DNA of 24,582 bases from Saprospiraceae bacterium (GTDB lineage: Bacteria > Bacteroidota > Bacteroidia > Chitinophagales > Saprospiraceae): positions 1-24,582 of the forward strand of contig JBGAWE010000045.1 in NCBI GenBank assembly GCA_044227705.1, written 5' to 3'. Numbering within the stretch: position 1 is the stretch's first letter; each line of letters starts with the position of its first letter. Positions 3,977 through 22,664 of the stretch are shown here, piece after piece. A program made the position numbers and the translations under genes. The notes under the pieces were generated by a model. The model saw nothing but the letters and a program-made list of their open reading frames with translations. It made no database searches and was not told the origin of the DNA.

Positions 3977-4849
3977 CTATGTCGCCGGGTGCGGCGGCGT
4001 CTGGTGGCCTCGCTCGCCGCTGGGGGTGACGGGGCCGATGGGCTTCTTGACCTTCGCCTCGGGAAGCTCGACGAAGCCGAAGCCGAGGTGGCCGTGCTCG
4101 CCGAAGCCGCTGTGATAGGCGAAGTCCATGAGGAGGGGCGGCATGGAGACCTCGAATTCATAGACGAAGCCGCGCACCTGCGTCAGCCCCTCGGCGTTCG
4201 GCTTGAGGTGGATGAGGCGGCTCTTGGGCTGCGCCCGTAGTTGGAAAGACATCGGGAAAGAGGCGTCGAGCAGCCCCTCGGCATTGAGCGCGCGGTTGCG
4301 GTGGGCGGATTTGTACTTGCGGATGAGGTGGGTGAAAAAGGCCACGTCGTACTGCTCCGCGTCGGGCAGCGGGTAGGGGGTGCCGCTGGGCGCGTCCTCC
4401 ACGTCGCTGATGGAGATGGGCGAGGCGACACGGAAGGTCATCGTGTCCTTCATGTTGACCTTCGGCATGACCTGCCAGTGCTTCACCTCAAAATAGGCCG
4501 GGCGGCCCTCGAAAGTGCCGAGCTGGAGCGGGTATTGGCGGAAAAGGTGGACAAGTTGCTGCTCGAACTGCTGCCCGAGCCAGAAGCTCAAAGTGAGCTT
4601 GACCTGGTTGCCGAGCAGCCGGAACTCCTGCTTGGCCTGGTCCATTTCATATGGGTATATGGCAAGCGGCGAGAAGGTGAAGAGCTTGAAATCCTTTGCT
4701 GCGAGGTCGAAGCCGAGCTGCTGCACGTGGGCCGCCAATTCCGCCCCGCCTTTTGCGAGGACGCCGAAGACCCAACTCGACAGTTCACTTTGGTAGTTGA
4801 TGGGGATGATGGTCCCTCTTTGACAGGTTAGGCTGAATTGGATGCGCAT
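3977..4849 (-). CDS. cas6: CRISPR-associated endoribonuclease Cas6 family protein (orphan: no array or other cas genes in the window)
   Basis: 290-aa ORF with a true ATG (4849). The N-terminal ..TIIPINYQSELSSWVFGVLAKGGAELAAHVQQL..KDFKLFTFSPL aligns with the Cas6 N-terminal ferredoxin-fold signature (P. furiosus Cas6 FKVPYNHQYYLQGLIYNAI..ELATYLHEV..KLFTYSLF). The C-terminal ..LLMDFAYHSGFGEHGHLGFGFVEL is the Cas6 glycine-rich loop GhGxxxxxGhG (PfCas6 [23 protein letters not shown]). The internal ..MTFRVASPISI.. resembles the second RRM ('vtF.SPt'). Confidence 0.65.
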   Translation of the reverse strand: MRIQFSLTCQRGTIIPINYQSELSSWVFGVLAKGGAELAAHVQQLGFDLAAKDFKLFTFSPLAIYPYEMDQAKQEFRLLGNQVKLTLSFWLGQQFEQQLVHLFRQYPLQLGTFEGRPAYFEVKHWQVMPKVNMKDTMTFRVASPISISDVEDAPSGTPYPLPDAEQYDVAFFTHLIRKYKSAHRNRALNAEGLLDASFPMSFQLRAQPKSRLIHLKPNAEGLTQVRGFVYEFEVSMPPLLMDFAYHSGFGEHGHLGFGFVELPEAKVKKPIGPVTPSGERGHQTPPHPAT

Positions 4850-5263: not shown

Positions 5264-6070
5264 ATGCGCAAATTCTACGTTCCAATTTTCCTGACGACCG
5301 CCTTTCTTCTCGGGGCAAGACTGACCGGCCAGACCCTCGAACCCGCCTCGTCGCCCATCTCGGGCAAGCCCATCTACCTCGACGGCAAACAGCAGCGGCA
5401 CCAAATCTCGCCGACGGACTTCACGCAGACTTTCTATCTCGAAAAGCTCTTGCCGGGCGAGAGCTATGAGCTGGTATTCGGCGATGAGGACGGGTTGAAA
5501 GGCTGCGTCCCGAAAGTCTCCGCGCCCGACGGCGATGCCAAGCTTGCGCCGACTACCGACGGGAAAACGGTCTACTTCGTCCCAAAATCGGCCAAAATCA
5601 GGCTCAACCTGACCTATTGCGCCGACCAGGAGCTGCCGAAGGAGCACTGGTTGAGCCTCGTCCTGATGACCGGCACGAAGTCGAACATCAAGGACTTGCT
5701 CGCAACGCTGCAGGTCGAGGGCGGCTACACGGCCGAGGACCTTGTCCGCGAGGTCATCATCGGGGGCGACTGTTTCGACATATCGAACGTCACCTATCAG
5801 GGGTCGCCCGTGCAAATCGGGAAGTTCTCGCAGGGCATCACTAACGTGGGCCTCATCGAGGGCGCCATCCTCGCCACCGGCCCCATCGACGTGGCCGTTG
5901 GGCCAAACGACCAGAACGGCGCAGGATCGGCCGTCGGCGGGGCGGGCAACGACGCCGACCTCGCCCAACTGGCGGGCGGCGGCTCCATCTTCGACCTGTG
6001 CGACATCGAGTTCGACTTCCGGCCCACCGAGTCGCCACTGTCTTTAAATTCCGTCTTTGCGTCAGAGTAA
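5264..6070 (+). CDS. N-terminal segment of a giant T9SS adhesin (signal peptide plus conserved N-terminal domain), ended by an in-frame TAA; the same frame continues into 6071..12043
   Basis: ATG at 5264 gives MRKFYVPIFLTTAFLLGARLTGQ, a signal peptide. The track ORF 4949.. starts at an upstream GTG. The domain ends ..DIEFDFRPTESPLSLNSVFASE then TAA at 6068-6070. The following codons in the same frame read YCEYVNSTFNDRFGFFISGPG.., so a conserved ..FASEEY.EYV.S.FND.FGFF.. block is split. Confidence 0.65.
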   Translation: MRKFYVPIFLTTAFLLGARLTGQTLEPASSPISGKPIYLDGKQQRHQISPTDFTQTFYLEKLLPGESYELVFGDEDGLKGCVPKVSAPDGDAKLAPTTDGKTVYFVPKSAKIRLNLTYCADQELPKEHWLSLVLMTGTKSNIKDLLATLQVEGGYTAEDLVREVIIGGDCFDISNVTYQGSPVQIGKFSQGITNVGLIEGAILATGPIDVAVGPNDQNGAGSAVGGAGNDADLAQLAGGGSIFDLCDIEFDFRPTESPLSLNSVFASE

Positions 6071-6196
6071 TACTGCGAGTACGTCAACTCGACCTTCAAC
6101 GACCGCTTCGGCTTCTTCATCAGCGGCCCCGGCATCGGCGGGCCGTTCAGCGGCGGCGCGGCCAACCTCGCCGTCCTGCCCGGCGGCGGCACCTAT

Positions 6197-9100
6197 GTGG
6201 GCATCAACACCGTCAACCATCTATTGAACACGGGCTATTTCCGCAACAACCAGCCCGCCACCGCCAACAACTGCACCCCGCTGCCGGCAGCCGGGGCATC
6301 TGCCAACGAGCTTCAGTTCGACGGGCTGACCACCGTTTTGACGGCCGTGGCGACCGTCATCCCCTGCTCGACGTACCATATCAAACTGAAGATCGGGGAC
6401 GTGGGCGACGGTGTATTCGATTCGGCCGTCTTTCTGAAGGCCGGCTCGTTCGACGGCGGCGGCAACGCCTCGCTCTCGCTCGAGGTGGCCGGCAACCCCG
6501 ACGACGACACCGCCACCGAAGGCTGCGAGAACGCCAAGTTCATTTTCACCCGCTCCGGCACCTCCCTCAACCTGCCGGTCGTGGTCAACTACACCATCAG
6601 CGGCACCGCCACCTCGGGTGCCGACTATGCGCCCATTCCTGGCTCCATTCTCATCCCGGCGGGGCAGACGATGGCGATGATCCCCGTCAACGTCATCAAC
6701 GACGGCATCGCCGAGAGCGTCGAGAACCTGCGCATCAAGCTGCTCCACCCGTGCTCATGCTCCGAGCCGTACATCGACCTGTTCATCGAGGACTACAACC
6801 CGATGATACTCATGTCGGACACCGTCCAGCAATGCGGCCCCGGCGTGGTCAACATCGAGCCGACGGTCACTTACGGCGTCGAGCCGTATACCTACAATTG
6901 GAACACGGGCCAGAACACGCCGAACATCTCGCCCTTTGTCAATGTCTCGCAGAACTACACACTGACTGTCACCGACTTCTGCGGGAAGACAAAGTCCATC
7001 AAGACCTACGTCAACGTCTACCCGCCTCCGAAAGCGACTGGCGGCGGGCAGGCCTTTCTCTGCAACGGAACCGGAACGGCCAACCTGACCATCAACTTCT
7101 CCGGCGGCGGCCCGTGGACGTTCACCTACAGCTACAACGGGGTCATTGAGGACCCGATCGGGCCGATCTACACGTCGCCGTACATCCTGACCGTAGACCA
7201 ACCGGGCATTTATGCGCTCGTCGACTGCACCAATGAGGAGGGCTGCGACGGGGCGGCCGTCGGGGTCTTCACCGTGCTATCCGTCGATATGAGCATCACG
7301 GGCATCGTCACCGATGTACTCTGCGGAAGCTCCACCAACGGCTCCATCAACACGACCGTGACTGGCGGCTCGCCTGCCTATACCTACAAATGGACGCCGG
7401 TCTTGGGCAACATCGCTGACCCCGTCAACCTTGGGGCAGGAACCTACACCGTTACCGTCACCGACAGCCACCAATGCACGGCGACGAACTCTTTCACCAT
7501 AAAACCGGGGACAATCCTGACGGCCACGCCGTCGAACATCGTGACTGCCGATTGCGCCCACCCGACGGGCGGCGGTGCGACTGCGAACGTGACGGGCGGA
7601 CAGCCGGGCTACACTTATTTATGGTCAAATGGCGCGTCGTCGAACCCGCTCGTCAACGTCGGGCCGGGCAACGTGACCGTCACCATTACCGACGCGCAGG
7701 GCTGCACGGTGGCCATGACCGTCGCGATTCCGGGCGATTTCGCGCCGCCGACGGCTAATGCCGCGGCGAACGGGCAAATCACCTGTCAAAACCAGAACGT
7801 CCCGATGAGCGGCGCGGGCAGCTCGAGCGGGCCGAACATCTCCTATCAATGGACGACCGTCGGCGGCGCGTTCAGCGGGCCGACCGATTTGCTCAACGCG
7901 ATTGCCGTCGCGCCGGGCCAGTATTCCATCGTTGTTACGGACAGCAACAACGGTTGCACGGCCACAAAATCGGTCGACATCACGGCCAGTGCCGACATCC
8001 CGGCGGCCAACGCCTCGGCGCCCGACCCGCTCACCTGCACCGTATCGACGGTCGGCCTCTCGGGCGCGGGGACGGCGACCGGCCCCGGCATCACCTATCA
8101 GTGGAGCGGCCCCGGCCTGGCGGGCGACCCGAACTCGCTCAACCCGTCGGCCACCGCGCCCGGCACCTACACGCTCGTCGTAAGCGATGCGAACTCGGGC
8201 TGCACGAACACCTCGCAGGCCGTCGTCGACCTCGACAACACTTTGCCACAGGCGGTCATCGCGCAGCCGGGTATCCTCAACTGCACGAGCGCTTCCGTCA
8301 TTTTGAACGCCATCGGAACTTCGACCGGCCCGAATTTCACCTATCAATGGACGGGCGCAGGCCTCCAATCCGGCCAGACGACCCTCCAGCCGACCGTGAC
8401 GGCCGCGGGGACTTTCACCATCCTCGTGACGAACACAACGAACGGCTGCACGACAACCACCTCGACGACGGTCGGCGCGGACAACTCATTGCCGACAGCC
8501 GTCATCGCGCAGCCGACGACATTGACCTGCACGACGCAGCAGTTCTCGCTTGATGCGAGCGGCTCCTCTTTCGGTGGAAATTTCGACATCAACTGGACGA
8601 CAGTGGGCGGCAACTACCTCCTCGGCACCAACGGCCTCAACCCGACCATCAACGCACCGGGCCAATATGTTTTGACCATCACGAACCTTTCGAGCCAATG
8701 CACGGCGACTGCGAACGTGACCGTCGGGCAGAACATCGCCACGCCGGTGGCCGATGCCGGGCAGCCGCAGGAGCTGACCTGCGCCCTTCTCTCAGCCCAG
8801 ATCGGGACGGCGAGCAGCCCCAATTTGACTTATAACTGGAGCGGCGCGGGCCTTTCGAGCAACACGGTTTCCAACCCGACGGCCAGCCAGCAAGGCACCT
8901 ATTATTTGACGGTTACCGACACGGCCAATGGCTGCACTGCCGATGCCTCTGTCGTGATTTCTGAAAACAATACGGCTCCTCAAATCACCGTCGCGCCCGG
9001 TGGACAGCTGACATGCCAAGTGACTTCGATGGATTTGAGCGCCGCAGGAAGCTCGGCCGGACCGAACTTCCTCTATCAATGGACAGCCTCCAACGGCGGC

Positions 9101-12043
9101 ACCATCGACCTGGGCGACAAGACCCAGACGCCGACCATCAGCAGCCCGGGCACCTACTCGCTTTTGATAACCGACACAAACAACTCGTGCACGGCCACCG
9201 CCTCGACGACGGTCACGCAGAGCGCGGGCGTGCCGGTCATCGCCGCCGCGCCCGACGGTGTGATCTCATGTAAAAACCCGGACGTCATCATCGACGCGAC
9301 CGGCACTTCGACCGGTGCCTCCATCAGCTACGAATGGTCGACGACCAACGGCTTCATCGTCACCGGCGTGAACGACCTCCAACTGACGGTCAACGCGCCG
9401 GGCGACTACAAGCTGCTCGTTCAAAACACGAACAACGGCTGCTCCGCCACTTCAACAATCACCGTTGGCTCCGACCTCACGCCGCCCGCGGCAGAAGCTG
9501 GGCCGGGCGCGACGCTTTCCTGCGGCCAGTCTTCCGCCACCCTGGACGGGACCGGATCGAGTGCAGGGGCCAATTTCACCTACCAGTGGGCGGCCACGAA
9601 CGGCGGGACTTTCACTTCGAACTCGAACCTTACCGGCCTTTCGCCGACGGCGACCGCCGCCGGGACGTACACCATCGTTGTGACGAACGGGACGAACGGC
9701 TGCACTGCGAGCGACGACGTGATCATCAACCAGGCACCTGATGTGCCGGTGGCCGTCGTCGCGCCCGCTGCGACGCTGACGTGCGCGGTGACTTCCATTG
9801 ATTTGAGTGGAACCGGCTCCTCGACCGGCGCGGCCTATTCCTATCTCTGGACGACCCTGAACGGCACGATTTCCAATGGGAACACGTCGCTCGCGCCGAC
9901 CGTCACAAAGCCCGGCACCTATCAATTGGCGGTGACCGACAACGTGAAAGGCTGCACCTCGCTCGCCTCCGTCACCGTCGCGCAGGACACGAAGAAGCCC
10001 GATATCCAGGCAGGCCCGCCCGGTTTGCTCACCTGCATCGCCAGTCAGACCACGCTCACCGGCACGGTCACAGGGCCGGGCAACTTCACCTACCTCTGGA
10101 CGGGCGGCACCATCCAGTCGGGCGCGACGACCCTGACGCCGACCGTCACGGCAGCGGGGACGTACACCCTGCAAGTGACCGACCAGTCGAACGGATGCAC
10201 ATCGACAGCGACGACGACTGTCACCTCGAACATGGTCCTGCCGACCGCAGCCATCGAACCCCCCACCACCATCAACTGCAACTTCGCCACTGCCGAGCTT
10301 GACGCGACGGCATCGAGCACGGGCCAGTTCTCCTACAATTGGGCTGCGACAAATGGCGGCAAAATCGACGACTTGAGCAACCCGCTCGTCCCCATAGTCA
10401 GCACGGCAGGCACCTACAATTTGACAGTGACGAACAACCTCAACGGCTGCACAGCCACGGCCTCCGTCGTTGTCATCGAGGACAAGGTGCCGCCAACGGC
10501 CGTCATCGCTGCGCCCGGCCAATTGACCTGCGCTGTCCAAACTTTGACCTTGAGCGGCACCGGTTCGAGCGCGGGCGCGCCCGGTTTCACCTATCAATGG
10601 ACGACGGCAAACGGGAAAATTGACAACGGCGCAACGACCCTCTCGCCGACCATCTCGAAGCCGGGCGACTATAAACTCGTGGTGAAAAACACGTCGAACG
10701 GTTGCACGGCAACTGCCTCTGCGTCGGTCACGGCGAACACAACGGCCCCACTGGCCGTCGTCGGAACGCCGGGAGAACTGACTTGCACGAAGAAGACGGT
10801 TACGTTGAGCGGCGTCGGCTCGGCCTCGGGGCCGGGCATCACCTATTCGTGGGCGACGACGAACGGGAACATCACAACAGGGCCGACGACCCTCACGCCG
10901 GTGGTCGACAAAATCGGGACATACGTCCTCACGGTTTTTAACTCGAACAACGGCTGCTCCTCGACCGCTCAAGCGACCGTCGGGCAGAACATCGCGGCAC
11001 CGACCGTCGACGCCGGCAACCCCTCCGAACTGACCTGCGCCAACCCAACCGCCTCGCTCATCGGCACGGCCTCGCCGCAGACGAACGTCGCGTGGACAGC
11101 CCAGCCGGGCAACATCGTCAGCGGCGCGACAAGCCTCACGCCGACCGTCAACGCCGCCGGGACGTACACCATCACGGCAACAAGCACGGTGAACGGCTGC
11201 ACGGCGACCGACAAAGTCGTCATCACTGCGCAGACCAGCCAGCCGACCGATTTGCAGGTCAATTTGACCATCCCGAGCTGTCAGGGCGACGGAATCATTG
11301 CCTTCACTGGCGTTACGGGCGGAGTCGAGCCGTATGTCTACAGCATCGACGGGGGGAAAAACTGGTTCTCCGCTGCGCAGTTCGACAACGTGCTGCCCGG
11401 CCAGTACGACCTCTGGGTGCAGGACGTGAACGGCTGCAAGTACCACGAGCCGCTCGCGGTGCCGCAACCGGCCATCCCCGAGCTGACGATGGTGCCGGAA
11501 ATCCAGCTCAACTTCGGCGACAGCATCACGCTCGACGCGAAGCTCAACGCCGGGTTCCCGCTCAACCAAGTCGACACCATCATCTGGACGCCGACGACCG
11601 GCCTGACCTTCGCCGGCAACTCGGTCAACGCGCTGCTGCACCCGTCGGTCAAGCCGGTCAAAAACTCGACCTACAAAGTCACGCTGATCTCGGTCGCTGG
11701 CTGCCAGACGACAGCCTCCGTCAACATCAAGGTCGACCGCGACCCGCACGTCTACATCCCCAACGCCATCAGCCCGTGGAACGCGGAGGGGCTGAACGAC
11801 CAGCTCATCATCTTCGCAAACCCGGCGCAGGTGCTGGAAATCACGGCCTTCGAGATGTTCGACCGCTGGGGCGACAAGGTCTGGGCCGACTACGGCTTCC
11901 AGCCCAACGAACCGGCGCACGGCTGGTCGAGCGTCGTCCGCAACAAGCAGCTCAACCCTGGGGTTTACGTCTATTGGGCGAACATCAAGTTCATCGACAA
12001 CCGCGAGGTGCTCTACAAAGGCGACGTGACCATCGTCCGATAA
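6197..12043 (+). CDS. giant cell-surface adhesin with SprB-type repeats, about 13 tandem ~90-aa repeats and a T9SS type-B C-terminal domain (gliding-motility-associated CTD); the frame is open from 6071
   Basis: 1948-aa ORF (track start is the GTG at 6197; frame 2 has been open since the TAA at 6068-6070). SprB-type repeats: CGSSTNGSINTTVTGGSPAYTYKWTP..GTYTVTVTDSHQCTATNSF. Tandem units: ..LTC....GtGSS.GpN.tYqWT..nG.I......L.PTV...GtYtL.VTd..NGCT.T..v.V... The C-terminus YIPNAISPWNAEGLNDQLIIF..FEMFDRWGDKVW....GWSSVVRNKQLNPGVYVYWANIKF..GDVTIVR matches the TIGR04131-type T9SS CTD. Confidence 0.8.
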   Translation: MGINTVNHLLNTGYFRNNQPATANNCTPLPAAGASANELQFDGLTTVLTAVATVIPCSTYHIKLKIGDVGDGVFDSAVFLKAGSFDGGGNASLSLEVAGNPDDDTATEGCENAKFIFTRSGTSLNLPVVVNYTISGTATSGADYAPIPGSILIPAGQTMAMIPVNVINDGIAESVENLRIKLLHPCSCSEPYIDLFIEDYNPMILMSDTVQQCGPGVVNIEPTVTYGVEPYTYNWNTGQNTPNISPFVNVSQNYTLTVTDFCGKTKSIKTYVNVYPPPKATGGGQAFLCNGTGTANLTINFSGGGPWTFTYSYNGVIEDPIGPIYTSPYILTVDQPGIYALVDCTNEEGCDGAAVGVFTVLSVDMSITGIVTDVLCGSSTNGSINTTVTGGSPAYTYKWTPVLGNIADPVNLGAGTYTVTVTDSHQCTATNSFTIKPGTILTATPSNIVTADCAHPTGGGATANVTGGQPGYTYLWSNGASSNPLVNVGPGNVTVTITDAQGCTVAMTVAIPGDFAPPTANAAANGQITCQNQNVPMSGAGSSSGPNISYQWTTVGGAFSGPTDLLNAIAVAPGQYSIVVTDSNNGCTATKSVDITASADIPAANASAPDPLTCTVSTVGLSGAGTATGPGITYQWSGPGLAGDPNSLNPSATAPGTYTLVVSDANSGCTNTSQAVVDLDNTLPQAVIAQPGILNCTSASVILNAIGTSTGPNFTYQWTGAGLQSGQTTLQPTVTAAGTFTILVTNTTNGCTTTTSTTVGADNSLPTAVIAQPTTLTCTTQQFSLDASGSSFGGNFDINWTTVGGNYLLGTNGLNPTINAPGQYVLTITNLSSQCTATANVTVGQNIATPVADAGQPQELTCALLSAQIGTASSPNLTYNWSGAGLSSNTVSNPTASQQGTYYLTVTDTANGCTADASVVISENNTAPQITVAPGGQLTCQVTSMDLSAAGSSAGPNFLYQWTASNGGTIDLGDKTQTPTISSPGTYSLLITDTNNSCTATASTTVTQSAGVPVIAAAPDGVISCKNPDVIIDATGTSTGASISYEWSTTNGFIVTGVNDLQLTVNAPGDYKLLVQNTNNGCSATSTITVGSDLTPPAAEAGPGATLSCGQSSATLDGTGSSAGANFTYQWAATNGGTFTSNSNLTGLSPTATAAGTYTIVVTNGTNGCTASDDVIINQAPDVPVAVVAPAATLTCAVTSIDLSGTGSSTGAAYSYLWTTLNGTISNGNTSLAPTVTKPGTYQLAVTDNVKGCTSLASVTVAQDTKKPDIQAGPPGLLTCIASQTTLTGTVTGPGNFTYLWTGGTIQSGATTLTPTVTAAGTYTLQVTDQSNGCTSTATTTVTSNMVLPTAAIEPPTTINCNFATAELDATASSTGQFSYNWAATNGGKIDDLSNPLVPIVSTAGTYNLTVTNNLNGCTATASVVVIEDKVPPTAVIAAPGQLTCAVQTLTLSGTGSSAGAPGFTYQWTTANGKIDNGATTLSPTISKPGDYKLVVKNTSNGCTATASASVTANTTAPLAVVGTPGELTCTKKTVTLSGVGSASGPGITYSWATTNGNITTGPTTLTPVVDKIGTYVLTVFNSNNGCSSTAQATVGQNIAAPTVDAGNPSELTCANPTASLIGTASPQTNVAWTAQPGNIVSGATSLTPTVNAAGTYTITATSTVNGCTATDKVVITAQTSQPTDLQVNLTIPSCQGDGIIAFTGVTGGVEPYVYSIDGGKNWFSAAQFDNVLPGQYDLWVQDVNGCKYHEPLAVPQPAIPELTMVPEIQLNFGDSITLDAKLNAGFPLNQVDTIIWTPTTGLTFAGNSVNALLHPSVKPVKNSTYKVTLISVAGCQTTASVNIKVDRDPHVYIPNAISPWNAEGLNDQLIIFANPAQVLEITAFEMFDRWGDKVWADYGFQPNEPAHGWSSVVRNKQLNPGVYVYWANIKFIDNREVLYKGDVTIVR
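7740..11250 (+). repeat. array of about 13 imperfect tandem repeats of 255-285 bp (protein-coding, inside the adhesin gene)
   Basis: Recurring cores aacggctgcac(g/t)gc (NGCTA), tatcaatggac (YQWT) and ctgacctgc (LTC) at roughly 270-bp spacing. Identical 20-mers recur, e.g. accgtcgggcagaacatcgc at about 8720 and about 10977. Confidence 0.7.
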
Positions 12044-12063
12044 GAAACAAATGTTTTATAGGA

Positions 12064-12100
12064 GCATGCCCCCGGCCGCGTGGCCGGGGGCATTTTTTTG
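12064..12100 (+). terminator. rho-independent terminator of the adhesin gene
   Basis: GCATGCCCCCGGCC-gcgt-GGCCGGGGGCAT followed by TTTTTTT, 20 nt after the TAA at 12041-12043. Confidence 0.8.
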
Positions 12101-12118
12101 CTCCAAATTTTGGGGGAC

Positions 12119-12592
12119 ATGATTGAAATCAGGGAATACGAAGCCGCTTTCCAAGCCCAAATTCCGGGCCTTATCGTGGGCATTCAAAACGGCGAGTTCG
12201 GTGTGCCGATAACTCTCGCCGACCAGCCCGACTTGCTGGACATCCCCAATTTCTACCAGTCCGGCCGGGGAAATTTCTGGGTCGCCGTCGATGGAAGAGG
12301 AGAGGTGGTCGGCACCATCGCGCTCATAGATGCCAGGTCGGAGTTTGGGGTCATCCGAAAAATGTTCGTCAGGAAGGACAGTCGCGGACCGGAACTTTCT
12401 GTGGCGGCGAGATTGTGTGATCAGCTGGAAAATTGGGCGACAAAAAACGGCTTCGCCCGACTCCTTCTTGGGACGAAACACGAGTTTCAGGCTGCCATCC
12501 GGTTTTACGCGAAGCGGGGATTTGTCGAAATCGAGAAGAGCGACCTGCCTTCAGCTTTTCCGTTGATGCCGCTCGACACCCTTCTTTTTTGA
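12119..12592 (+). CDS. GNAT family N-acetyltransferase
   Basis: ATG at 12119 (MIEIREYEA..). The track's GTG at 12080 lies inside the terminator hairpin. ..VVGTIALIDARSEFGVIRKMFVRKDSRGPELSVAARLCDQLENWATKNGFARLLLGT..AAIRFYAKRGFVEIE has GNAT motifs A and B. It lies convergent with the next gene, 14 bp apart. Confidence 0.7.
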   Translation: MIEIREYEAAFQAQIPGLIVGIQNGEFGVPITLADQPDLLDIPNFYQSGRGNFWVAVDGRGEVVGTIALIDARSEFGVIRKMFVRKDSRGPELSVAARLCDQLENWATKNGFARLLLGTKHEFQAAIRFYAKRGFVEIEKSDLPSAFPLMPLDTLLF

Positions 12593-12606
12593 GAAAAACT
12601 GGCCGC

Positions 12607-14445
12607 TTAGACCCGTATGAACTTGACGGCTTTCGTCCCCTCTTTCGACGTGAACCGAACGAGGTAGCTCCCAGCCGCCAGTCCCCTTTCTTCGATGAGG
12701 ACTTGGTGTGCCCCCTCCGGCAGTTCCGTTTTTTGGAAATAGACGCTCACCCGGCTGCCTTTTGCGTCGAACAGCTCGACCGTCACCGGCTGCCTTTCAA
12801 AAAGATAGAACGAGAAGACCGTCGCCCCGCCCGTCGGGTTGGGGAAGATGCGCGGCGTTTTGTCGTAGTCGGCTTCTGAAACAGGCGTTTCGCGCAGGAA
12901 GATGGGCGAACCTGTCAGTTTGACCTGCCGGCCGTTCACTAAATAACCCACGCCCGATGGGCCGGTCGCTGTGAAGTATTTTTCGTCAAAAGAAGTTGGG
13001 AAGGAATAATCGGCAGCCGCCGCCTCGCTCCTGTCCTTCGACGTGGCGGCCCACAGTACGTAGAGGTTCTTGCCCAGTTCGTCCTTGTATGCCACGCCCC
13101 GGATGCCGTTCGGGAGAGCCAGTTCCTTCGTCCGCGCAGCATCAACTTTCGTCCCGCGCAGCTGGTCGCTCACGGTTTTGAACGCGGTGGCGAGGGCGTT
13201 TCGCTCATTGTCGAAAGGCTGTTTTCCCTCCAGATTTTTGAAGAAGCCCATGAAGCTGAACTCGTTGTCGGTATGCGGTCCGATTTTGTTGTCCGACAGG
13301 TTGTAGACGTACATCTGGTCGATGCCCTCGGCCGGGGCCATGGCGAGGGTCTTCGTCATGAAGTTGACCTGTGCCTCGGCCGAACCAATGTAGTCACCGT
13401 ACTCCTTTCGCGGGATGTTGAACTCGGTGACGATCCAGTGCTTTTTCGGGTGCATTGAACCGTCGTATCTGAATTTGGACAGCACAAGATCGAAGTCCGC
13501 CTTCTTTTTCCATACTCCGTCGACGCAGGCGTCGCTGTGGCGGAAGTGCCGAAAGCCCGCGATGCTGTTGTCCCAAGCCCGGGTTGCGCCCTCGATATGC
13601 GGATAGCTGTGGTAGGAAAGGCAGTCGAAATAGGCGCCGCCCTTTTTGGGGAATTGGGAGGTCACCTTGCCGCCGTTCGGGTTGTCGGTGTTTCGCAGCA
13701 AAACGTCGAGATAGCTCGGATACCCGATGCCGCCCACGCAGACGAACTCGTCGGGGTTGTAGTCCTTGATAACCTCGTAGGCGATTCGCAGCAGGCGGAT
13801 ATAGTGGTAAACAGGCGCATAGGTCGTCGTCTCACAGGCCTGCGGCGTATTGAGCCACCAGTTGTTCTCGATGGTCGACGGCTTCCAGGCGTTGCCGCCG
13901 ATGTCGAAATCCGGCTCGTTCCAAATCTCCCAAAACCGGACATACGGGCCGTAGACCTGCACAGTCTTCCAGATGTAGAGGGCGGCGGGGTTGTCGTCGT
14001 TGACGGGGGTGCCGTTCTCGCCGTCGTCCCAGATCGGGAGGTACATGTTTTTGAAGAACACGCTCATGTGGCCGGGGCAGTGTTCGGTCGAGTCGCGGTG
14101 CCTCGGTGCGGGGAAGCCGAGGAAAACAGTGTTGTTCTTCAACCCGATGGAATCATAAAACCGGAAAGTGCTCTCGCGGATGGTGTACCCCCAGTAATCA
14201 AGAAATTCCTCGGGCAAGGCGGGCCGGATGCAGTTGACCCCGATGCCGGGCGTGGAGCCGTCGGGCAGGCCGCGCACGAGGGCGGCGAGGGTCTCGTCGG
14301 TGTAGGGCGGGTAGACGCCCATGTTGGAGCCGAAGCCGAAGGGATGGGAATAGAGCGGCACGACCTCGTCGGCGGTGAAACCGGGCTGCGCGGAGCAAGC
14401 CGTGCGCAACAGCAGGAAGACGAGAGGGGCGAAGTTTTTCACCAT
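12607..14445 (-). CDS. secreted glycoside hydrolase (clan GH-A TIM barrel) with a T9SS type-A C-terminal sorting domain
   Basis: 612 aa with signal peptide MVKNFAPLVFLLLRTACSAQ. ..VRFWEIWNEPD.. fits a clan GH-A acid/base Glu and ..HWIVTEFNIP.. a nucleophile Glu. The C-terminal ~85 aa ..RIFPNPTGGATVFSFYL..VELFDAKGSRV......LAAGSYLVRFTSKEG..KFIRV match Por_Secre_tail (TIGR04183). The exact GH family is not assignable by eye. Confidence 0.65.
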   Translation of the reverse strand: MVKNFAPLVFLLLRTACSAQPGFTADEVVPLYSHPFGFGSNMGVYPPYTDETLAALVRGLPDGSTPGIGVNCIRPALPEEFLDYWGYTIRESTFRFYDSIGLKNNTVFLGFPAPRHRDSTEHCPGHMSVFFKNMYLPIWDDGENGTPVNDDNPAALYIWKTVQVYGPYVRFWEIWNEPDFDIGGNAWKPSTIENNWWLNTPQACETTTYAPVYHYIRLLRIAYEVIKDYNPDEFVCVGGIGYPSYLDVLLRNTDNPNGGKVTSQFPKKGGAYFDCLSYHSYPHIEGATRAWDNSIAGFRHFRHSDACVDGVWKKKADFDLVLSKFRYDGSMHPKKHWIVTEFNIPRKEYGDYIGSAEAQVNFMTKTLAMAPAEGIDQMYVYNLSDNKIGPHTDNEFSFMGFFKNLEGKQPFDNERNALATAFKTVSDQLRGTKVDAARTKELALPNGIRGVAYKDELGKNLYVLWAATSKDRSEAAAADYSFPTSFDEKYFTATGPSGVGYLVNGRQVKLTGSPIFLRETPVSEADYDKTPRIFPNPTGGATVFSFYLFERQPVTVELFDAKGSRVSVYFQKTELPEGAHQVLIEERGLAAGSYLVRFTSKEGTKAVKFIRV

Positions 14446-16013: not shown

Positions 16014-16646
16014 TCAGTTTCCGAGGACGACCTCGACGCGCCGGTTCTGCCGCCGCCCCTCGGGGTTGTCGTTGCTGCCGACGGGCTGGCTCTCGCCCTT
16101 GCCGACGGTCTTGATCTGGTGGGCGGCCACGCCTTTTTCTTTCAAAATGTCGCGGATGTTCTTCGCCCGCCGCTCGCTGACGAGGATGTTGGTCTTCGGG
16201 TCGCCCACCGCGTCGGTGTGGCCGACGAGCGTCACGGTCTTGCCGCTGGATTTCAGGTTCTCGGCCAGTCGCGAGAGGTAGTCGTCGACGTCGGCGTTGG
16301 CCTGTTTGTCGAGCTTGTTGTAGTCGTAGTGGATGACCACGCGGTCGGAAAGCTCCTCGACGGTTGAGCTTTTTGTCGCAGCTTTCGGCTCTGTTTTAGG
16401 GGCGGGCGGCTCCGATTTGGGGGCGGGTTCGGCGACGGCAGGGGCCTCTTCTTTGGTTGGCTCGGCCGCGACGGTTTGCTGCGTGGGTTCGGGTTCTGCG
16501 GGGGGGGCCTGCGCGATGGGCTGCTCGGGTATCCGGCTCATCTCGACCGGGCTGGCGCACCGCTCCTTGATGTGGCAGACGTACCAGTTGCGGCAGAGGA
16601 AGCACCAAATGGCGAAGGCCAGAAGGGGGAAGATTCTCGTACTCAT
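16014..16646 (-). CDS. OmpA-family (peptidoglycan-binding OmpA_C domain) membrane-anchored protein
   Basis: N-terminal hydrophobic anchor IFPLLAFAIWCFLC and a Pro/Glu/Ala-rich linker. The C-terminal ..VTLVGHTDAVGDPKTNILVSERRAKNIRDILKEKGVAAHQIKTVGKGESQPVGSNDNPEGRRQNRRVEVVL is the OmpA/MotB signature. Confidence 0.85.
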   Translation of the reverse strand: MSTRIFPLLAFAIWCFLCRNWYVCHIKERCASPVEMSRIPEQPIAQAPPAEPEPTQQTVAAEPTKEEAPAVAEPAPKSEPPAPKTEPKAATKSSTVEELSDRVVIHYDYNKLDKQANADVDDYLSRLAENLKSSGKTVTLVGHTDAVGDPKTNILVSERRAKNIRDILKEKGVAAHQIKTVGKGESQPVGSNDNPEGRRQNRRVEVVLGN

Positions 16647-17817: not shown

Positions 17818-18237
17818 TTACGGTTCAAAAAAAGGGCGGAGACTGTCCAGCAGGTAGCCAGGTGCCTCGACGACCTTTTTCAGCTTCGCGTCGAAGAAGG
17901 CGAGGCGGACGCGGCCGGTGTTGGCCAGCTTCCCTTTTTCATTGAAAACTTCGACGTGGAAGGTGATTTCCCGCCCCGGCAATTCGCGGACTTGGGTCTG
18001 CACGGTCACCAGCTCGTCGTAGAAGATCGGCCGCAGGTAGCGCATCTCGACCGCCGCGACGGGCAGCCAGATGCCATCGCGCTCCTCCATCTCCTTGTAG
18101 CTCAAGCCGAGCGAGCGGATGGCCTCGACGCGGCCGACCTCGTAATACTCGGCGTACCGGCCATAGTAAAGATAGCCCATCTGGTCGGTCTCGCCATAGC
18201 GCACACGGATTTTGACCTCGCTTTGAAACATGGTCAA
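17818..18237 (-). CDS. acyl-CoA thioesterase, 4HBT/YbgC hotdog family
   Basis: 139 aa. VKIRVRYGETDQMGYLYYGRYAEYYEVGRVEAIRSLG matches the YbgC/FadM N-terminal catalytic motif. Its ATG overlaps the arcA stop by 4 nt (ATGA), so the two are co-transcribed. Confidence 0.8.
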   Translation of the reverse strand: MTMFQSEVKIRVRYGETDQMGYLYYGRYAEYYEVGRVEAIRSLGLSYKEMEERDGIWLPVAAVEMRYLRPIFYDELVTVQTQVRELPGREITFHVEVFNEKGKLANTGRVRLAFFDAKLKKVVEAPGYLLDSLRPFFEP

Positions 18238-21124: not shown

Positions 21125-21475
21125 TCAGGCTGCTTGCGAAAAAAGCTCCATTTGAAAATTGCTCCCGGCCAAGCTCAAGAACCGGGCGTATCGCAGCTTC
21201 TCTTTGCTGTTGGTGCGCAGCGAGATGAGCTTGGCCAGCTCGAGCGACAGATAATAGTCGTCGACCGGCTGGCTGATCGGGCTGGGCCGCCGGCCGAAGT
21301 CGCGCAGCTCCACAGGTCGACGGATTCCGTCGCTAAACTCATAGGTGTCGCGCAGCCACCGCCGCAGGTTCACGCCATAGCTGTGGTTGGGCAGGCCCAG
21401 CGCGAGGTGGAGGTTGCTCGCAGTCACGACCTTCGTCCCTTTCTTGCTCTCCAAAATTTTGAGTTCCATAGCCAA
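21125..21475 (-). CDS. phage antirepressor-like (AntA/Rha/Bro-N-type) DNA-binding domain protein
   Basis: 116 aa. ..KVVTASNLHLALGLPNHSYGVNLRRWLRDTYEFSDGIR...DDYYLSLELAKLISLRTNSKEKLRYARFL follows the AntA/AntB N-terminal pattern (v.ta.el...LG.......f..Wik..i..y.f.eg.Dy.....DY.ltld.AK...m....). Assigned from memory of the family, not from a search. Confidence 0.4.
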   Translation of the reverse strand: MAMELKILESKKGTKVVTASNLHLALGLPNHSYGVNLRRWLRDTYEFSDGIRRPVELRDFGRRPSPISQPVDDYYLSLELAKLISLRTNSKEKLRYARFLSLAGSNFQMELFSQAA

Positions 21476-21850
21476 AAGGTTTCTGTTTTAAGACCTCAAA
21501 TTTGACGGCACAAACTTAACGCAAGTTGTTTTTAAGACACAAAAAATTTTATGAAAATCTTGATATATTTTTTTAAATAAAACAAAAGTCGAGGCTTTGG
21601 CGGAAGGGCTGCCCGGGCCTCTCGGGATGTGATGCTAGAATGACAGTTTGCTTTTTTACACCTATTTCATAGGATTTGACTGACAAAACCTCCTACTGCT
21701 CACCCGTCACTTGGAATCGGCAAAAAAATATGTTTTTAGAATCTTGCCGTTTTGTTTTGTCGGATTTCACCTTTGCTGCAACAGAAAACCTCCAACAGAA
21801 ACTGACTCCGACGACTTTTTCGGACCTTTAATTTGACACCGGTGGAGGCG
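21476..21850. other. AT-rich intergenic island with short direct repeats, in an otherwise ~60% GC window
   Basis: Repeats seen directly: TTTTAAGAC twice (about 21487 and 21532), ATTTGAC three times (about 21503, 21673, 21825), AAAACCTCC twice (about 21686 and 21787), and A/T runs (ttttatgaaaatcttgatatatttttttaaataaaacaaaag). No ORF larger than 60 aa. Confidence 0.5.
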
Positions 21851-22427: not shown

Positions 22428-22664
22428 CGAATTGGGGGCGATTCGTCGAAGGGCGCCGATGGCATTTACGGACGGTAAAGGTGGCCGAGAGTTGGCCGGG
22501 CCGCGGCTTGGCTTGGTCGTCGTCGGCCTTGCATTCGTCTGATGGGGGGAATTTTGGGTGAGGTTGGCCGGTTTGTGGGCTGTCAGTTCGGAGCGCTGGC
22601 GCGCCTTCTCAAAAGAACAGCGGACAGTCCGGGCTGGCAGATTCTTCACTCAAATTCCAACAAA

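What the first reader, a model, noticed from the sequence alone, without database searches (positions are those of the whole stretch)
6062..6076. Single in-frame TAA splits a ~2,260-codon adhesin gene inside a conserved motif (FASE-[stop]-YCEYV)
Frame 2 runs uninterrupted from ATG 5264 to TAA 12041 except for one TAA at 6068-6070. The residues either side (..LSLNSVFASE * YCEYVNSTFNDRFGFFISGPG..) form one conserved block in which a Glu (GAA) would be expected at the stop position. A single G-to-T change would explain it. Possible causes are a recent nonsense mutation (pseudogene or phase-off state of a surface adhesin), a sequencing error, or expression of the downstream 1,990 codons from an internal start, though that product would lack the signal peptide. 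For a T9SS cargo protein, loss of the N-terminal signal peptide would abolish export.
Basis: seen in the sequence. Interest (0 to 1): 0.55.

Follow-up and report, generated by a model that had tools for sequence, protein, structure and literature searches.

The report
Giant adhesin gene broken by stop
A very long surface-adhesin gene of a Saprospiraceae-like bacterium is cut by one premature stop codon in the middle of a conserved domain, which makes it a recently broken gene or a sequence error, so it is an ordinary finding.

Summary
Frame 2 runs from ATG 5264 to TAA 12041-12043 (2,260 codons) with a single internal stop, TAA at 6068-6070.

The stop sits at profile position 108 of 219 of one choice-of-anchor L domain. 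The two fragments match profile positions 4-107 and 109-219. The stop column is Glu in 119 of 119 homologues (FASEEY). So this is one type IX secretion (T9SS, type B C-terminal domain) adhesin gene cut mid-domain, not two natural genes.

I found no support for recoding, phase variation or a useful internal start. TAA ends other genes in the window. There is no repeat or invertible element at the site. The first in-frame start comes 42 codons later and has no signal peptide.

The stop is not a clean lone SNP. The 11 codons before it are the rarest-codon stretch among 6,911 such stretches in the window's 16 genes. They also carry two further changes at residues that do not vary in 119 homologues (F261L, Y/F263S). 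This 36-nt patch (6035-6070) is unexplained.

The 1,990 downstream codons are intact, so any inactivation is recent. I cannot separate a real nonsense lesion (favoured) from an assembly artefact without reads. Related giant adhesin genes are often broken in metagenome-assembled genomes (MAGs). Interest is low.

The parts
5264..6070 (+). Upstream fragment: 268 codons plus TAA. It holds a signal-peptide-like leader, an N-terminal beta-rich region and the first half of the choice-of-anchor L domain.
   Evidence: NF038133 matches residues 162-268 at profile positions 4-107 of 219. The N-terminus aligns with the homologues' N-termini.
5264..5332 (+). Probable Sec signal peptide (MRKFYVPIFLTTAFLLGARLTGQ)
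   Evidence: Read from the translation: a basic N-terminus followed by a hydrophobic stretch. It aligns with the homologues' leaders, which end ..LSAQ or ..LSGQ. The AlphaFold model of the homologue P0001 shows an N-terminal helix at residues 7-19 with low confidence. No signal-peptide predictor was run.
5747..6451 (+). One choice-of-anchor L domain (residues 162-396), interrupted at its midpoint
   Evidence: With the stop masked, NF038133 matches in a single stretch, 4-219 of 219, E = 2e-63, 213.8 bits.
6035..6070 (+). 36-nt atypical patch: CCA CTG TCT TTA AAT TCC GTC TTT GCG TCA GAG TAA. It holds rare A/T-ending codons, L261 (F in 119/119 homologues), S263 (Y or F in 119/119) and the stop.
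   Evidence: The 11 sense codons before the stop rank 1st and 2nd of 6,911 windows for codon rarity across 16 coding sequences. G+C is 15 of 36.
6068..6070 (+). Premature TAA, replacing an invariant Glu (residue 269)
6071..12043 (+). Downstream fragment: 1,990 intact codons plus the terminal TAA. It holds the second half of the choice-of-anchor L domain, then Calx-beta, SprB repeats, many PKD/Ig-like repeats and the CHU_C domain.
   Evidence: GC3 is 0.84. There is no second stop or frameshift.
6197..6199 (+). First in-frame potential start (GTG) after the stop. It lies inside the domain and has no leader.
   Evidence: One search lists ORF 6197..12043. No promoter-like site was found nearby on the + strand.
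6515..6751 (+). Calx-beta domain
   Evidence: PF03160, 39.6 bits, residues 149-227 of the downstream fragment
11756..12004 (+). T9SS type B C-terminal sorting domain (CHU_C)
   Evidence: PF13585 scores 32.6 bits, above its cut-off of 27, at residues 1896-1978. TIGR04131 scores only 17.7 bits, below its cut-off of 35.

Best explanation
The region 5264-12043 is a single gene for a roughly 2,260-residue T9SS-secreted, SprB/PKD-repeat surface adhesin with an N-terminal choice-of-anchor L domain. A nonsense codon (TAA for an invariant Glu, most simply GAA to TAA) cuts it in the middle of that domain.

As written, translation would stop after 268 residues. The product would have a signal peptide but only half a beta-sandwich and no C-terminal sorting domain. 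The remaining 1,990 codons have no signal peptide and no plausible start. Inference: the adhesin cannot be made or exported, so the locus is a pseudogene.

The lesion is recent, because the downstream 6 kb shows no further damage. It is not an isolated SNP. It is the 3' end of a 36-nt cluster of substitutions (6035-6070) whose origin is unknown.

Loss of a surface adhesin by nonsense mutation is a familiar outcome in Bacteroidota, for example under phage pressure. That selective cause is inferred here, not shown.
For: One gene, cut mid-domain:
- The profile halves 4-107 and 109-219 join into one hit, 4-219, E = 2e-63.
- Glu is found at the stop column in 26 of 26 and 119 of 119 homologues. No homologue has a boundary there.
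- In the AlphaFold model of the closest homologue (pLDDT 85.9), FASEE ends strand 258-266, with further strands of the same domain on both sides.

T9SS adhesin: SprB, PKD, Calx-beta and CHU_C hits.

TAA is a normal terminator in this genome:
- The type A T9SS cargo gene 12607-14445 ends in TAA two residues after its sorting domain.
- The thioesterase gene 17818-18237 ends in TAA.
- The adhesin's own end aligns with the homologues' ends.
- No tRNA gene and no Rfam element are present.

Recent origin: 494 of 17,910 possible single-base changes downstream would create a stop, about one per 36 random substitutions, yet none is present in 1,990 codons.

The sequence looks accurate overall: every neighbouring gene that matched a full-length family profile matches it in one uninterrupted stretch, for example pyruvate kinase at 4-470 of 476.

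A cluster of about nine substitutions that keeps the frame is not the usual form of base-calling error (inference).

Precedents:
- The closest homologue (L002) has one in-frame TAA at a conserved Glu of its Calx-beta domain.
- Phage-resistant Flavobacterium psychrophilum mutants carry mostly nonsense or frameshift mutations in T9SS and gliding-motility machinery genes (gld genes, sprA). About 70% of the substitutions were G:C to T:A. The paper also notes that the T9SS-secreted adhesins SprB and RemA are thought to be phage receptors (PMC9804748).
Against: - No reads, coverage or strain comparison are available, so an assembly or consensus error cannot be excluded.
- No close relative exists in the searched collections. 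The best adhesin hit is 51% identical. The nearest PaaY-like neighbour protein is 71-73% identical. Three DNA pattern scans found nothing. The ancestral sequence of the patch is therefore inferred from family consensus and this genome's codon preference, not observed.
- The dense patch is odd for a single natural point mutation. It could equally reflect a chimeric or poorly supported stretch of assembly.
- Related genes in MAGs are often fragmented, mostly by frameshifts, and some of these are likely assembly errors.
Confidence: 0.6

Rival explanations
1. Sequencing, assembly or polishing artefact. The real genome has an intact gene (Glu at 269, Phe at 261, Tyr or Phe at 263). The 36-nt patch would be a badly supported or chimeric consensus stretch, for example low coverage, a read end, or cross-mapped reads from a paralogue or another population in a metagenome.
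For: - Three invariant residues are hit within 9 codons, while the rest of the 512-residue N-terminal region departs from 113 group-conserved columns only once, and mildly.
- The patch is the most codon-atypical stretch in the window and has sharp borders.
- The downstream 1,990 codons are perfect.
- Long adhesin genes of this family are often fragmented in MAG assemblies.
Against: - Every neighbouring gene that matched a full-length family profile matches it in one uninterrupted stretch, so the general error rate is low.
- Consensus errors of current platforms are mainly indels or isolated substitutions, not about nine substitutions in 36 nt without an indel (established knowledge).
- Graph assemblers copy paths that exist in reads, so the patch probably exists in some molecule (inference).
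Confidence: 0.3
2. Short-patch gene conversion or templated repair. The 36 nt would have been copied from a decayed, A/T-drifted paralogous choice-of-anchor L pseudogene elsewhere in the genome. The copy brought in the stop and the two other changes together, and this might act as an on/off or variation mechanism for adhesins.
For: - The changes are clustered, keep the frame, and mostly go from G/C to A/T, with sharp borders.
- The motif is the most conserved segment of a large family.
Against: - No donor sequence lies in the 24.5-kb window, even allowing 3 mismatches. The nearby imperfect inverted repeat does not template the changes.
- The rest of the genome is unavailable.
- A paralogue in the same genome would be expected to share the high GC3.
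- This is pure inference.
Confidence: 0.06
3. The gene is still expressed through recoding: TAA readthrough, programmed -1 frameshifting at the in-frame T TTA AAT (6043-6049), or a reassigned TAA.
For: - A heptamer of X XXY YYZ form lies six codons before the stop, and the -1 frame is open from 5998 to 7149.
- The closest homologue also has TAA at a Glu position.
- The downstream frame is intact.
Against: - Domain homology and the high GC3 continue in the zero frame, not the -1 frame. The -1 ORF fails the GC3 filter.
- TAA ends at least three genes in the window.
- There is no suppressor tRNA and no Rfam recoding element.
- TAA followed by T is the strongest termination context known in E. coli (established knowledge).
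- The two TAA sites share no sequence context.
- GAA to TAA makes up only about 2% of the nonsense paths in this gene, but one matching second case is a post hoc coincidence at roughly the 5% level.
Confidence: 0.02
4. Two natural genes: a small secreted N-terminal protein and a separately started large protein.
For: Gene callers would report two ORFs, as they do for broken homologues.
Against: - The boundary falls at position 108 of a 219-position domain.
- 119 of 120 homologues carry the motif uninterrupted.
- There is no start codon for 42 codons, no leader and no promoter-like site.
Confidence: 0.01

Closest known systems
Choice-of-anchor L domain proteins of Saprospiraceae/Lewinellaceae (NCBIfam NF038133, Pfam PF26766) with a T9SS type B sorting domain
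   Same: The order of parts is the same: leader, N-terminal beta region, choice-of-anchor L, Calx-beta, SprB and PKD/Ig repeats, CHU_C. The best hits are MAG proteins from these families at 47-51% identity.
   Different: This copy carries an in-frame TAA at the invariant Glu, plus L261 and S263. No close orthologue is on record (at most 51% identity over at least 90% of the query, 59% for a partial hit), and there is no synteny with the homologue loci.
SprB/RemA-type gliding-motility adhesins of Flavobacterium johnsoniae
   Same: It is a giant repetitive cell-surface protein with SprB repeats (PF13573, 39.1 bits) and a type B T9SS sorting domain.
   Different: No cognate sprF/porP-like gene follows on the same strand; the next gene is convergent. 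A role in motility was not tested. The N-terminal choice-of-anchor L domain is, from my own knowledge, not a feature of SprB.
Loss-of-function mutations in T9SS and gliding-motility genes of phage-resistant Flavobacterium (PMC9804748; bioRxiv 10.1101/2020.10.02.323337, title and abstract only)
   Same: A nonsense change of G:C to T:A type in a gene of the T9SS surface system. In PMC9804748, about 70% of substitutions in resistant isolates were of this type, and most mutations were nonsense or frameshift.
   Different: The reported mutations were in machinery genes (gld genes, sprA), in laboratory-selected isolates, not in adhesin genes. Here the selective agent is unknown, and the lesion comes with a multi-substitution patch.
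Interrupted homologue P0001 and its downstream ORF in MAG GCA_044224835.1 (L002)
   Same: It has a single in-frame TAA at a conserved Glu, with the frame open on both sides (905 codons, one stop).
   Different: The domain differs (Calx-beta, EGQ*SIIIKL), the neighbouring residues are unchanged, and the local sequence context is unrelated.

Membership tests
Choice-of-anchor L domain (NF038133) | A full-length match to the 219-position profile above the 27-bit cut-off on one polypeptide | tested here: not met
   As encoded, the match is split: 65.7 bits at profile 4-107 and 128.7 bits at profile 109-219 on separate ORFs. It is met only when the stop is masked (213.8 bits, 4-219).
Choice-of-anchor L domain (NF038133) | The conserved core motif F-x-[YF]-V-F-[AG]-S-E-E-Y-C-E | tested here: not met
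   The query reads L-N-S-V-F-A-S-E-*-Y-C-E. F, Y/F and the second E are each found in 119 of 119 homologues.
T9SS cargo, type B sorting domain | A C-terminal CHU_C / TIGR04131 domain at the very end of the protein | tested here: met
   PF13585 scores 32.6 bits (cut-off 27) at residues 1896-1978 of 1990. TIGR04131 scores only 17.7 bits (cut-off 35). The terminal residues align with the homologues' ends.
T9SS cargo, type B sorting domain | An N-terminal Sec signal peptide on the same polypeptide as the sorting domain | tested here: not met
   A leader-like N-terminus exists at 5264-5332, but the TAA at 6068 separates it from the sorting domain. No signal-peptide predictor was available.
SprB-like gliding adhesin | SprB repeats | tested here: met
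   PF13573 scores 39.1 bits, above its cut-off of 28, in 2 stretches.
SprB-like gliding adhesin | A cognate SprF/PorP-like gene immediately downstream | tested here: not met
   The next confident gene is 12607-14445 on the minus strand, a type A T9SS cargo gene. The + strand ORF 12080-12592 lacks the GC3 signature.
Pseudogene by internal stop | Homologue alignments run across a single in-frame stop, with no alternative gene boundary | tested here: met
Phase-variable contingency locus | A simple-sequence repeat or an invertible segment at the switch site | tested here: not met
   There is no tandem repeat in the gene. Only weak, scattered repeats lie around the site.
Programmed recoding (selenocysteine, pyrrolysine, -1 frameshift, readthrough) | TGA with a SECIS element or TAG with Pyl machinery; or a slippery site followed by a shifted frame that carries on the protein | tested here: not met
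   The stop is TAA. There is no Rfam hit. T TTA AAT is present, but homology continues in the zero frame and the -1 ORF has no coding signature.
Alternative genetic code with TAA reassigned | TAA is not used as a terminator, and in-frame TAA is widespread in conserved genes | tested here: not met
   TAA ends three genes at the expected protein ends. No other gene in the window has an in-frame stop.

The most novel reading that the evidence does not exclude
The TAA did not arise as a lone point mutation. It arrived with about eight other changes as a roughly 36-nt tract copied from a decayed paralogous choice-of-anchor L pseudogene. That would point to segmental gene conversion among the many adhesin paralogues of Saprospiraceae as a way of switching or varying surface adhesins, comparable in logic to the pilE/pilS or vlsE cassette systems. 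Those comparisons are from my own knowledge and were not tested.
Probability: 0.06. Interest if true: 0.5.

Novelty: new member of a known kind. Interest (0 to 1): 0.15.

Why it matters
For annotation, 5264-12043 should be called one disrupted adhesin gene (a pseudogene, or a site to re-check). It should not be called as two proteins and should not be counted as functional T9SS cargo.

If the lesion is real, it is one more example of surface adhesins being among the first genes lost. It fits a pattern seen in the nearest homologues, which are also interrupted.

The 36-nt patch is the only part that is not routine. It either flags a local assembly problem or records a clustered mutational or conversion event. 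The original reads and the full genome would distinguish these cheaply.

Tried and rejected
1. Finding the source genome or a population variant.
   - Exact DNA patterns across the stop were searched in genome contigs and metagenome contigs. A pattern of both flanks with 36 N between them was also searched in metagenome contigs. None matched.
   - Exact-protein look-ups of the N-terminal fragment and of the neighbouring 612-residue gene found nothing on record.
2. Synteny through the PaaY-like neighbour gene. This gave 80 loci at no more than 73% identity, none with a nearby choice-of-anchor L gene.
3. A template for the patch.
   - There is no second copy in the window, allowing up to 3 mismatches.
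   - The imperfect inverted repeat 6031-6048 / 6337-6354 does not explain the changed bases.
4. An internal promoter. No promoter-like site was found on the + strand near the stop. My by-eye search for the Bacteroidota -7 and -33 motifs also found none.
5. A -1 frameshift at T TTA AAT. This was rejected because the zero frame keeps both the homology and the GC3 signal.
6. A double frameshift across the patch. My own reading of the +1 and +2 frames of the patch sequence does not resemble the motif.
7. A suppressor tRNA or an RNA element. None was found.
8. Fold assignment of the domain.
   - PDB sequence search gave nothing below E = 0.19.
   - Foldseek of the AlphaFold model returned only weak, generic beta-sandwich matches with TM-scores near 0.15.
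   - The local Pfam copy lacks PF26766.
9. Is the A/T-rich codon choice a family feature? Homologues also use GAA and TTT in the motif, but they come from genomes with GC3 of 0.50-0.64, where this is expected. The comparison is therefore uninformative.
10. G+C content alone is a weak statistic. About 60 other 36-nt low-G+C clusters exist in the window. The codon-rarity measure is the specific one.

Full report
**Observation.** The sequence at 6062-6076 reads TCA GAG TAA TAC TGC, with TAA at 6068-6070 in frame with ATG 5264. Translating 5264-12043 gives 2,260 codons. Exactly one internal stop is present, and the terminal TAA is at 12041-12043. GC3 is 0.83 before the stop and 0.84 after it, so both parts carry the same strong coding signature.

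**One gene or two.**
- NCBIfam NF038133 (choice-of-anchor L, 219 profile positions) matches residues 162-268 of the upstream fragment at profile positions 4-107. It matches residues 1-127 of the downstream fragment at positions 109-219.
- With the stop masked, the two halves fuse into one hit, 4-219, at 213.8 bits and E = 2e-63. The stop therefore sits at profile position 108, the midpoint of a single domain.
- A search of the large protein collection returned 1,842 relatives. The best are Saprospiraceae or Lewinellaceae MAG proteins, at only 47-51% identity.
- In an alignment of 26 of them, the stop column is Glu in all 26, within FASEEYCEY. Among the 120 listed hits, 119 carry the motif, and all 119 have Glu at that position.
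- No homologue ends or begins there.
- An AlphaFold model of the closest homologue (pLDDT 85.9) places FASEE at the end of strand 258-266, with further strands of the same domain on either side. Neither half should fold alone (inference).

**What the gene is.** After the choice-of-anchor L domain come Calx-beta, SprB repeats, many PKD/Ig-like repeats and a C-terminal CHU_C domain, which is the T9SS type B sorting signal (PF13585, 32.6 bits against a cut-off of 27). TIGR04131 is below its cut-off. The N-terminus, MRKFYVPIFLTTAFLLGARLTGQ, looks like a Sec leader and aligns with the homologues' leaders.

**Consequence of the stop** (inference from established T9SS biology: cargo needs a Sec leader to cross the inner membrane and the C-terminal domain to cross the outer membrane).
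- The 268-residue product keeps the leader but has only half a domain and no sorting signal.
- The remaining 1,990 codons have no leader.
- The first in-frame start is GTG 6197, 42 codons downstream and inside the domain. No promoter-like site lies nearby on the + strand.
- The next gene is convergent, so no polar effect on an operon is expected.

**Alternatives to simple disruption.**
- Code reassignment is excluded within the limits of one window. TAA ends the type A T9SS cargo gene 12607-14445 two residues after its sorting domain. It also ends the thioesterase gene 17818-18237 and the adhesin itself at the position where homologues end.
- No tRNA gene and no Rfam family are present.
- Phase variation has no substrate. 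There is no tandem repeat in the gene and no meaningful repeat at the site.
- An in-frame heptamer T TTA AAT (6043-6049) has the form of a -1 slippery site, and the -1 frame is open to 7149. However, homology and GC3 continue in the zero frame, so frameshifting would produce nonsense.
- TAA followed by T is the strongest known terminator context in E. coli (established knowledge), which argues against useful readthrough.

**New point: the stop is not a clean single SNP.**
- I compared the query with columns conserved among the 26 homologues. It departs from 113 group-conserved columns at four places. Three of them lie within nine codons: L261 for Phe, S263 for Tyr or Phe, and the stop for Glu. 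All three residues do not vary in 119 homologues.
- The 11 sense codons before the stop are CCA CTG TCT TTA AAT TCC GTC TTT GCG TCA GAG. They are the two lowest-scoring of 6,911 eleven-codon windows for codon rarity across the 16 confident coding sequences of the window (7,081 codons). For example, TTA accounts for 1.2% of Leu codons, TCT for 3.6% and TCA for 3.8% of Ser codons.
- The codons on both sides of this stretch are the preferred ones, so the patch (6035-6070) has sharp borders.
- Measured against the family consensus written in this genome's preferred codons, about nine of the 36 bases differ, mostly G/C to A/T (inference).
- A uniform decay of a dead gene cannot explain this, because the rest of the gene is clean.
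- Ordinary consensus error is also an uneasy fit, because there is no indel and the other genes that can be checked are intact.
- I found no template for the patch in the window. I leave its origin open. It could be a clustered mutational event, a short conversion tract from an unseen paralogue, or a chimeric or poorly supported stretch of assembly.

**Age.** In the downstream 1,990 codons, 494 of 17,910 possible single-base changes would create a stop, about one per 36 random substitutions. None is present, and there is no frameshift. If the gene is dead, it has accumulated less than roughly 1-2% neutral change since then (inference).

**Context.**
- The neighbours are ordinary chromosomal genes: MalQ C-terminus, a histidine kinase, a FIST protein, a PaaY/gamma-carbonic-anhydrase-like protein, an OmpA-like protein, YihY, a thioesterase, an arginine-deiminase-like protein, pyruvate kinase and an SPFH protein. 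Those that match a full-length family profile do so in one uninterrupted stretch.
- The nearest PaaY-like protein among GTDB representative genomes is 71-73% identical and comes from Saprospiraceae or Lewinellaceae MAGs. The source therefore has no close relative in the searched collections.
- Neither the locus nor a variant of it could be found, and no syntenic adhesin turned up.

**Homologues are often broken too.**
- The closest one (L002, GCA_044224835.1) has a single in-frame TAA at a conserved Glu of its Calx-beta domain, with an otherwise open frame of 905 codons.
- L001 has a +1 frameshift.
- L083 is in six overlapping pieces. L084 is in two pieces that overlap by 4 nt. L085 has a frameshift or deletion.
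- Some of these are probably assembly errors, and some are probably real.
- Very long genes are large targets. In addition, surface adhesins are thought to serve as phage receptors. In Flavobacterium psychrophilum, phage-resistant isolates carry mostly nonsense or frameshift mutations in T9SS and gliding-motility machinery genes, and about 70% of the substitutions are G:C to T:A (PMC9804748).
- That is a plausible background for a GAA-to-TAA loss here, but it is not tested.

**Verdict.** The finding is real but ordinary: one T9SS adhesin gene interrupted mid-domain at an invariant Glu.
- I put about 0.6 on a genuine recent loss-of-function lesion.
- About 0.3 goes to a sequencing or assembly artefact.
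- The remaining small share goes to conversion from a paralogue, to recoding, and to two natural genes.
- Only the 36-nt atypical patch departs from routine. Reads and the full genome would resolve it at once.

Noticed in passing
window 6035-6070: The premature stop is the last codon of a sharply bounded 36-nt patch. The patch holds the rarest-codon cluster of the whole window (rank 1-2 of 6,911 windows). It also holds two further substitutions at residues that do not vary in 119 homologues (F261L, Y/F263S). Its origin is unexplained.
   Followed up: yes
L002 7450-7452 (GCA_044224835.1, contig JBGAJS010000121.1): The closest homologue of the adhesin also has a single in-frame TAA at a conserved Glu (EGQ*SIIIKL in the Calx-beta domain). 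Its frame is otherwise open for 905 codons, up to the contig end.
   Followed up: partly
L001 about 7895-7905; L083 7001-13935; L084 8701-8704; L085 about 8330-8410: Homologous giant choice-of-anchor L / CHU_C adhesin genes in four other MAGs are split into 2 to 6 ORFs by frameshifts or small deletions. Fragmentation of this gene family is common in public assemblies.
   Followed up: partly
window 6043-6049: The in-frame heptamer T TTA AAT has the form of a -1 slippery site and lies six codons before the stop. The -1 frame stays open to 7149 but carries neither homology nor a coding signature. I judged this a coincidence.
   Followed up: yes
window 3977-4849 (-): A Cas6-family gene (Pfam Cas_Cas6_C 63.6 bits; TIGR01877 56.4 bits, just under its cut-off) sits divergently upstream of the adhesin. 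The 24.5-kb window has no CRISPR array and no other cas gene.
   Followed up: partly
window 12044-12606: No SprF/PorP-like gene follows the type B sorting-domain adhesin. The next gene (12607-14445, minus strand) is a convergent T9SS type A cargo protein with no other recognised domain.
   Followed up: partly
window 21429-21838: A strongly A/T-rich stretch (as low as 3 G+C in 36 nt) lies just beyond the start of the minus-strand gene 21125-21475 and upstream of the gene that starts at 22542 on the + strand. It probably holds their promoters.
   Followed up: no
window 16386-16427: This is the only tandem repeat in the window: two copies of a 21-nt unit (CGGCTCCGATTTAGGGGCGGG). It lies inside the OmpA-family gene 16014-16646 (minus strand).
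   Followed up: no
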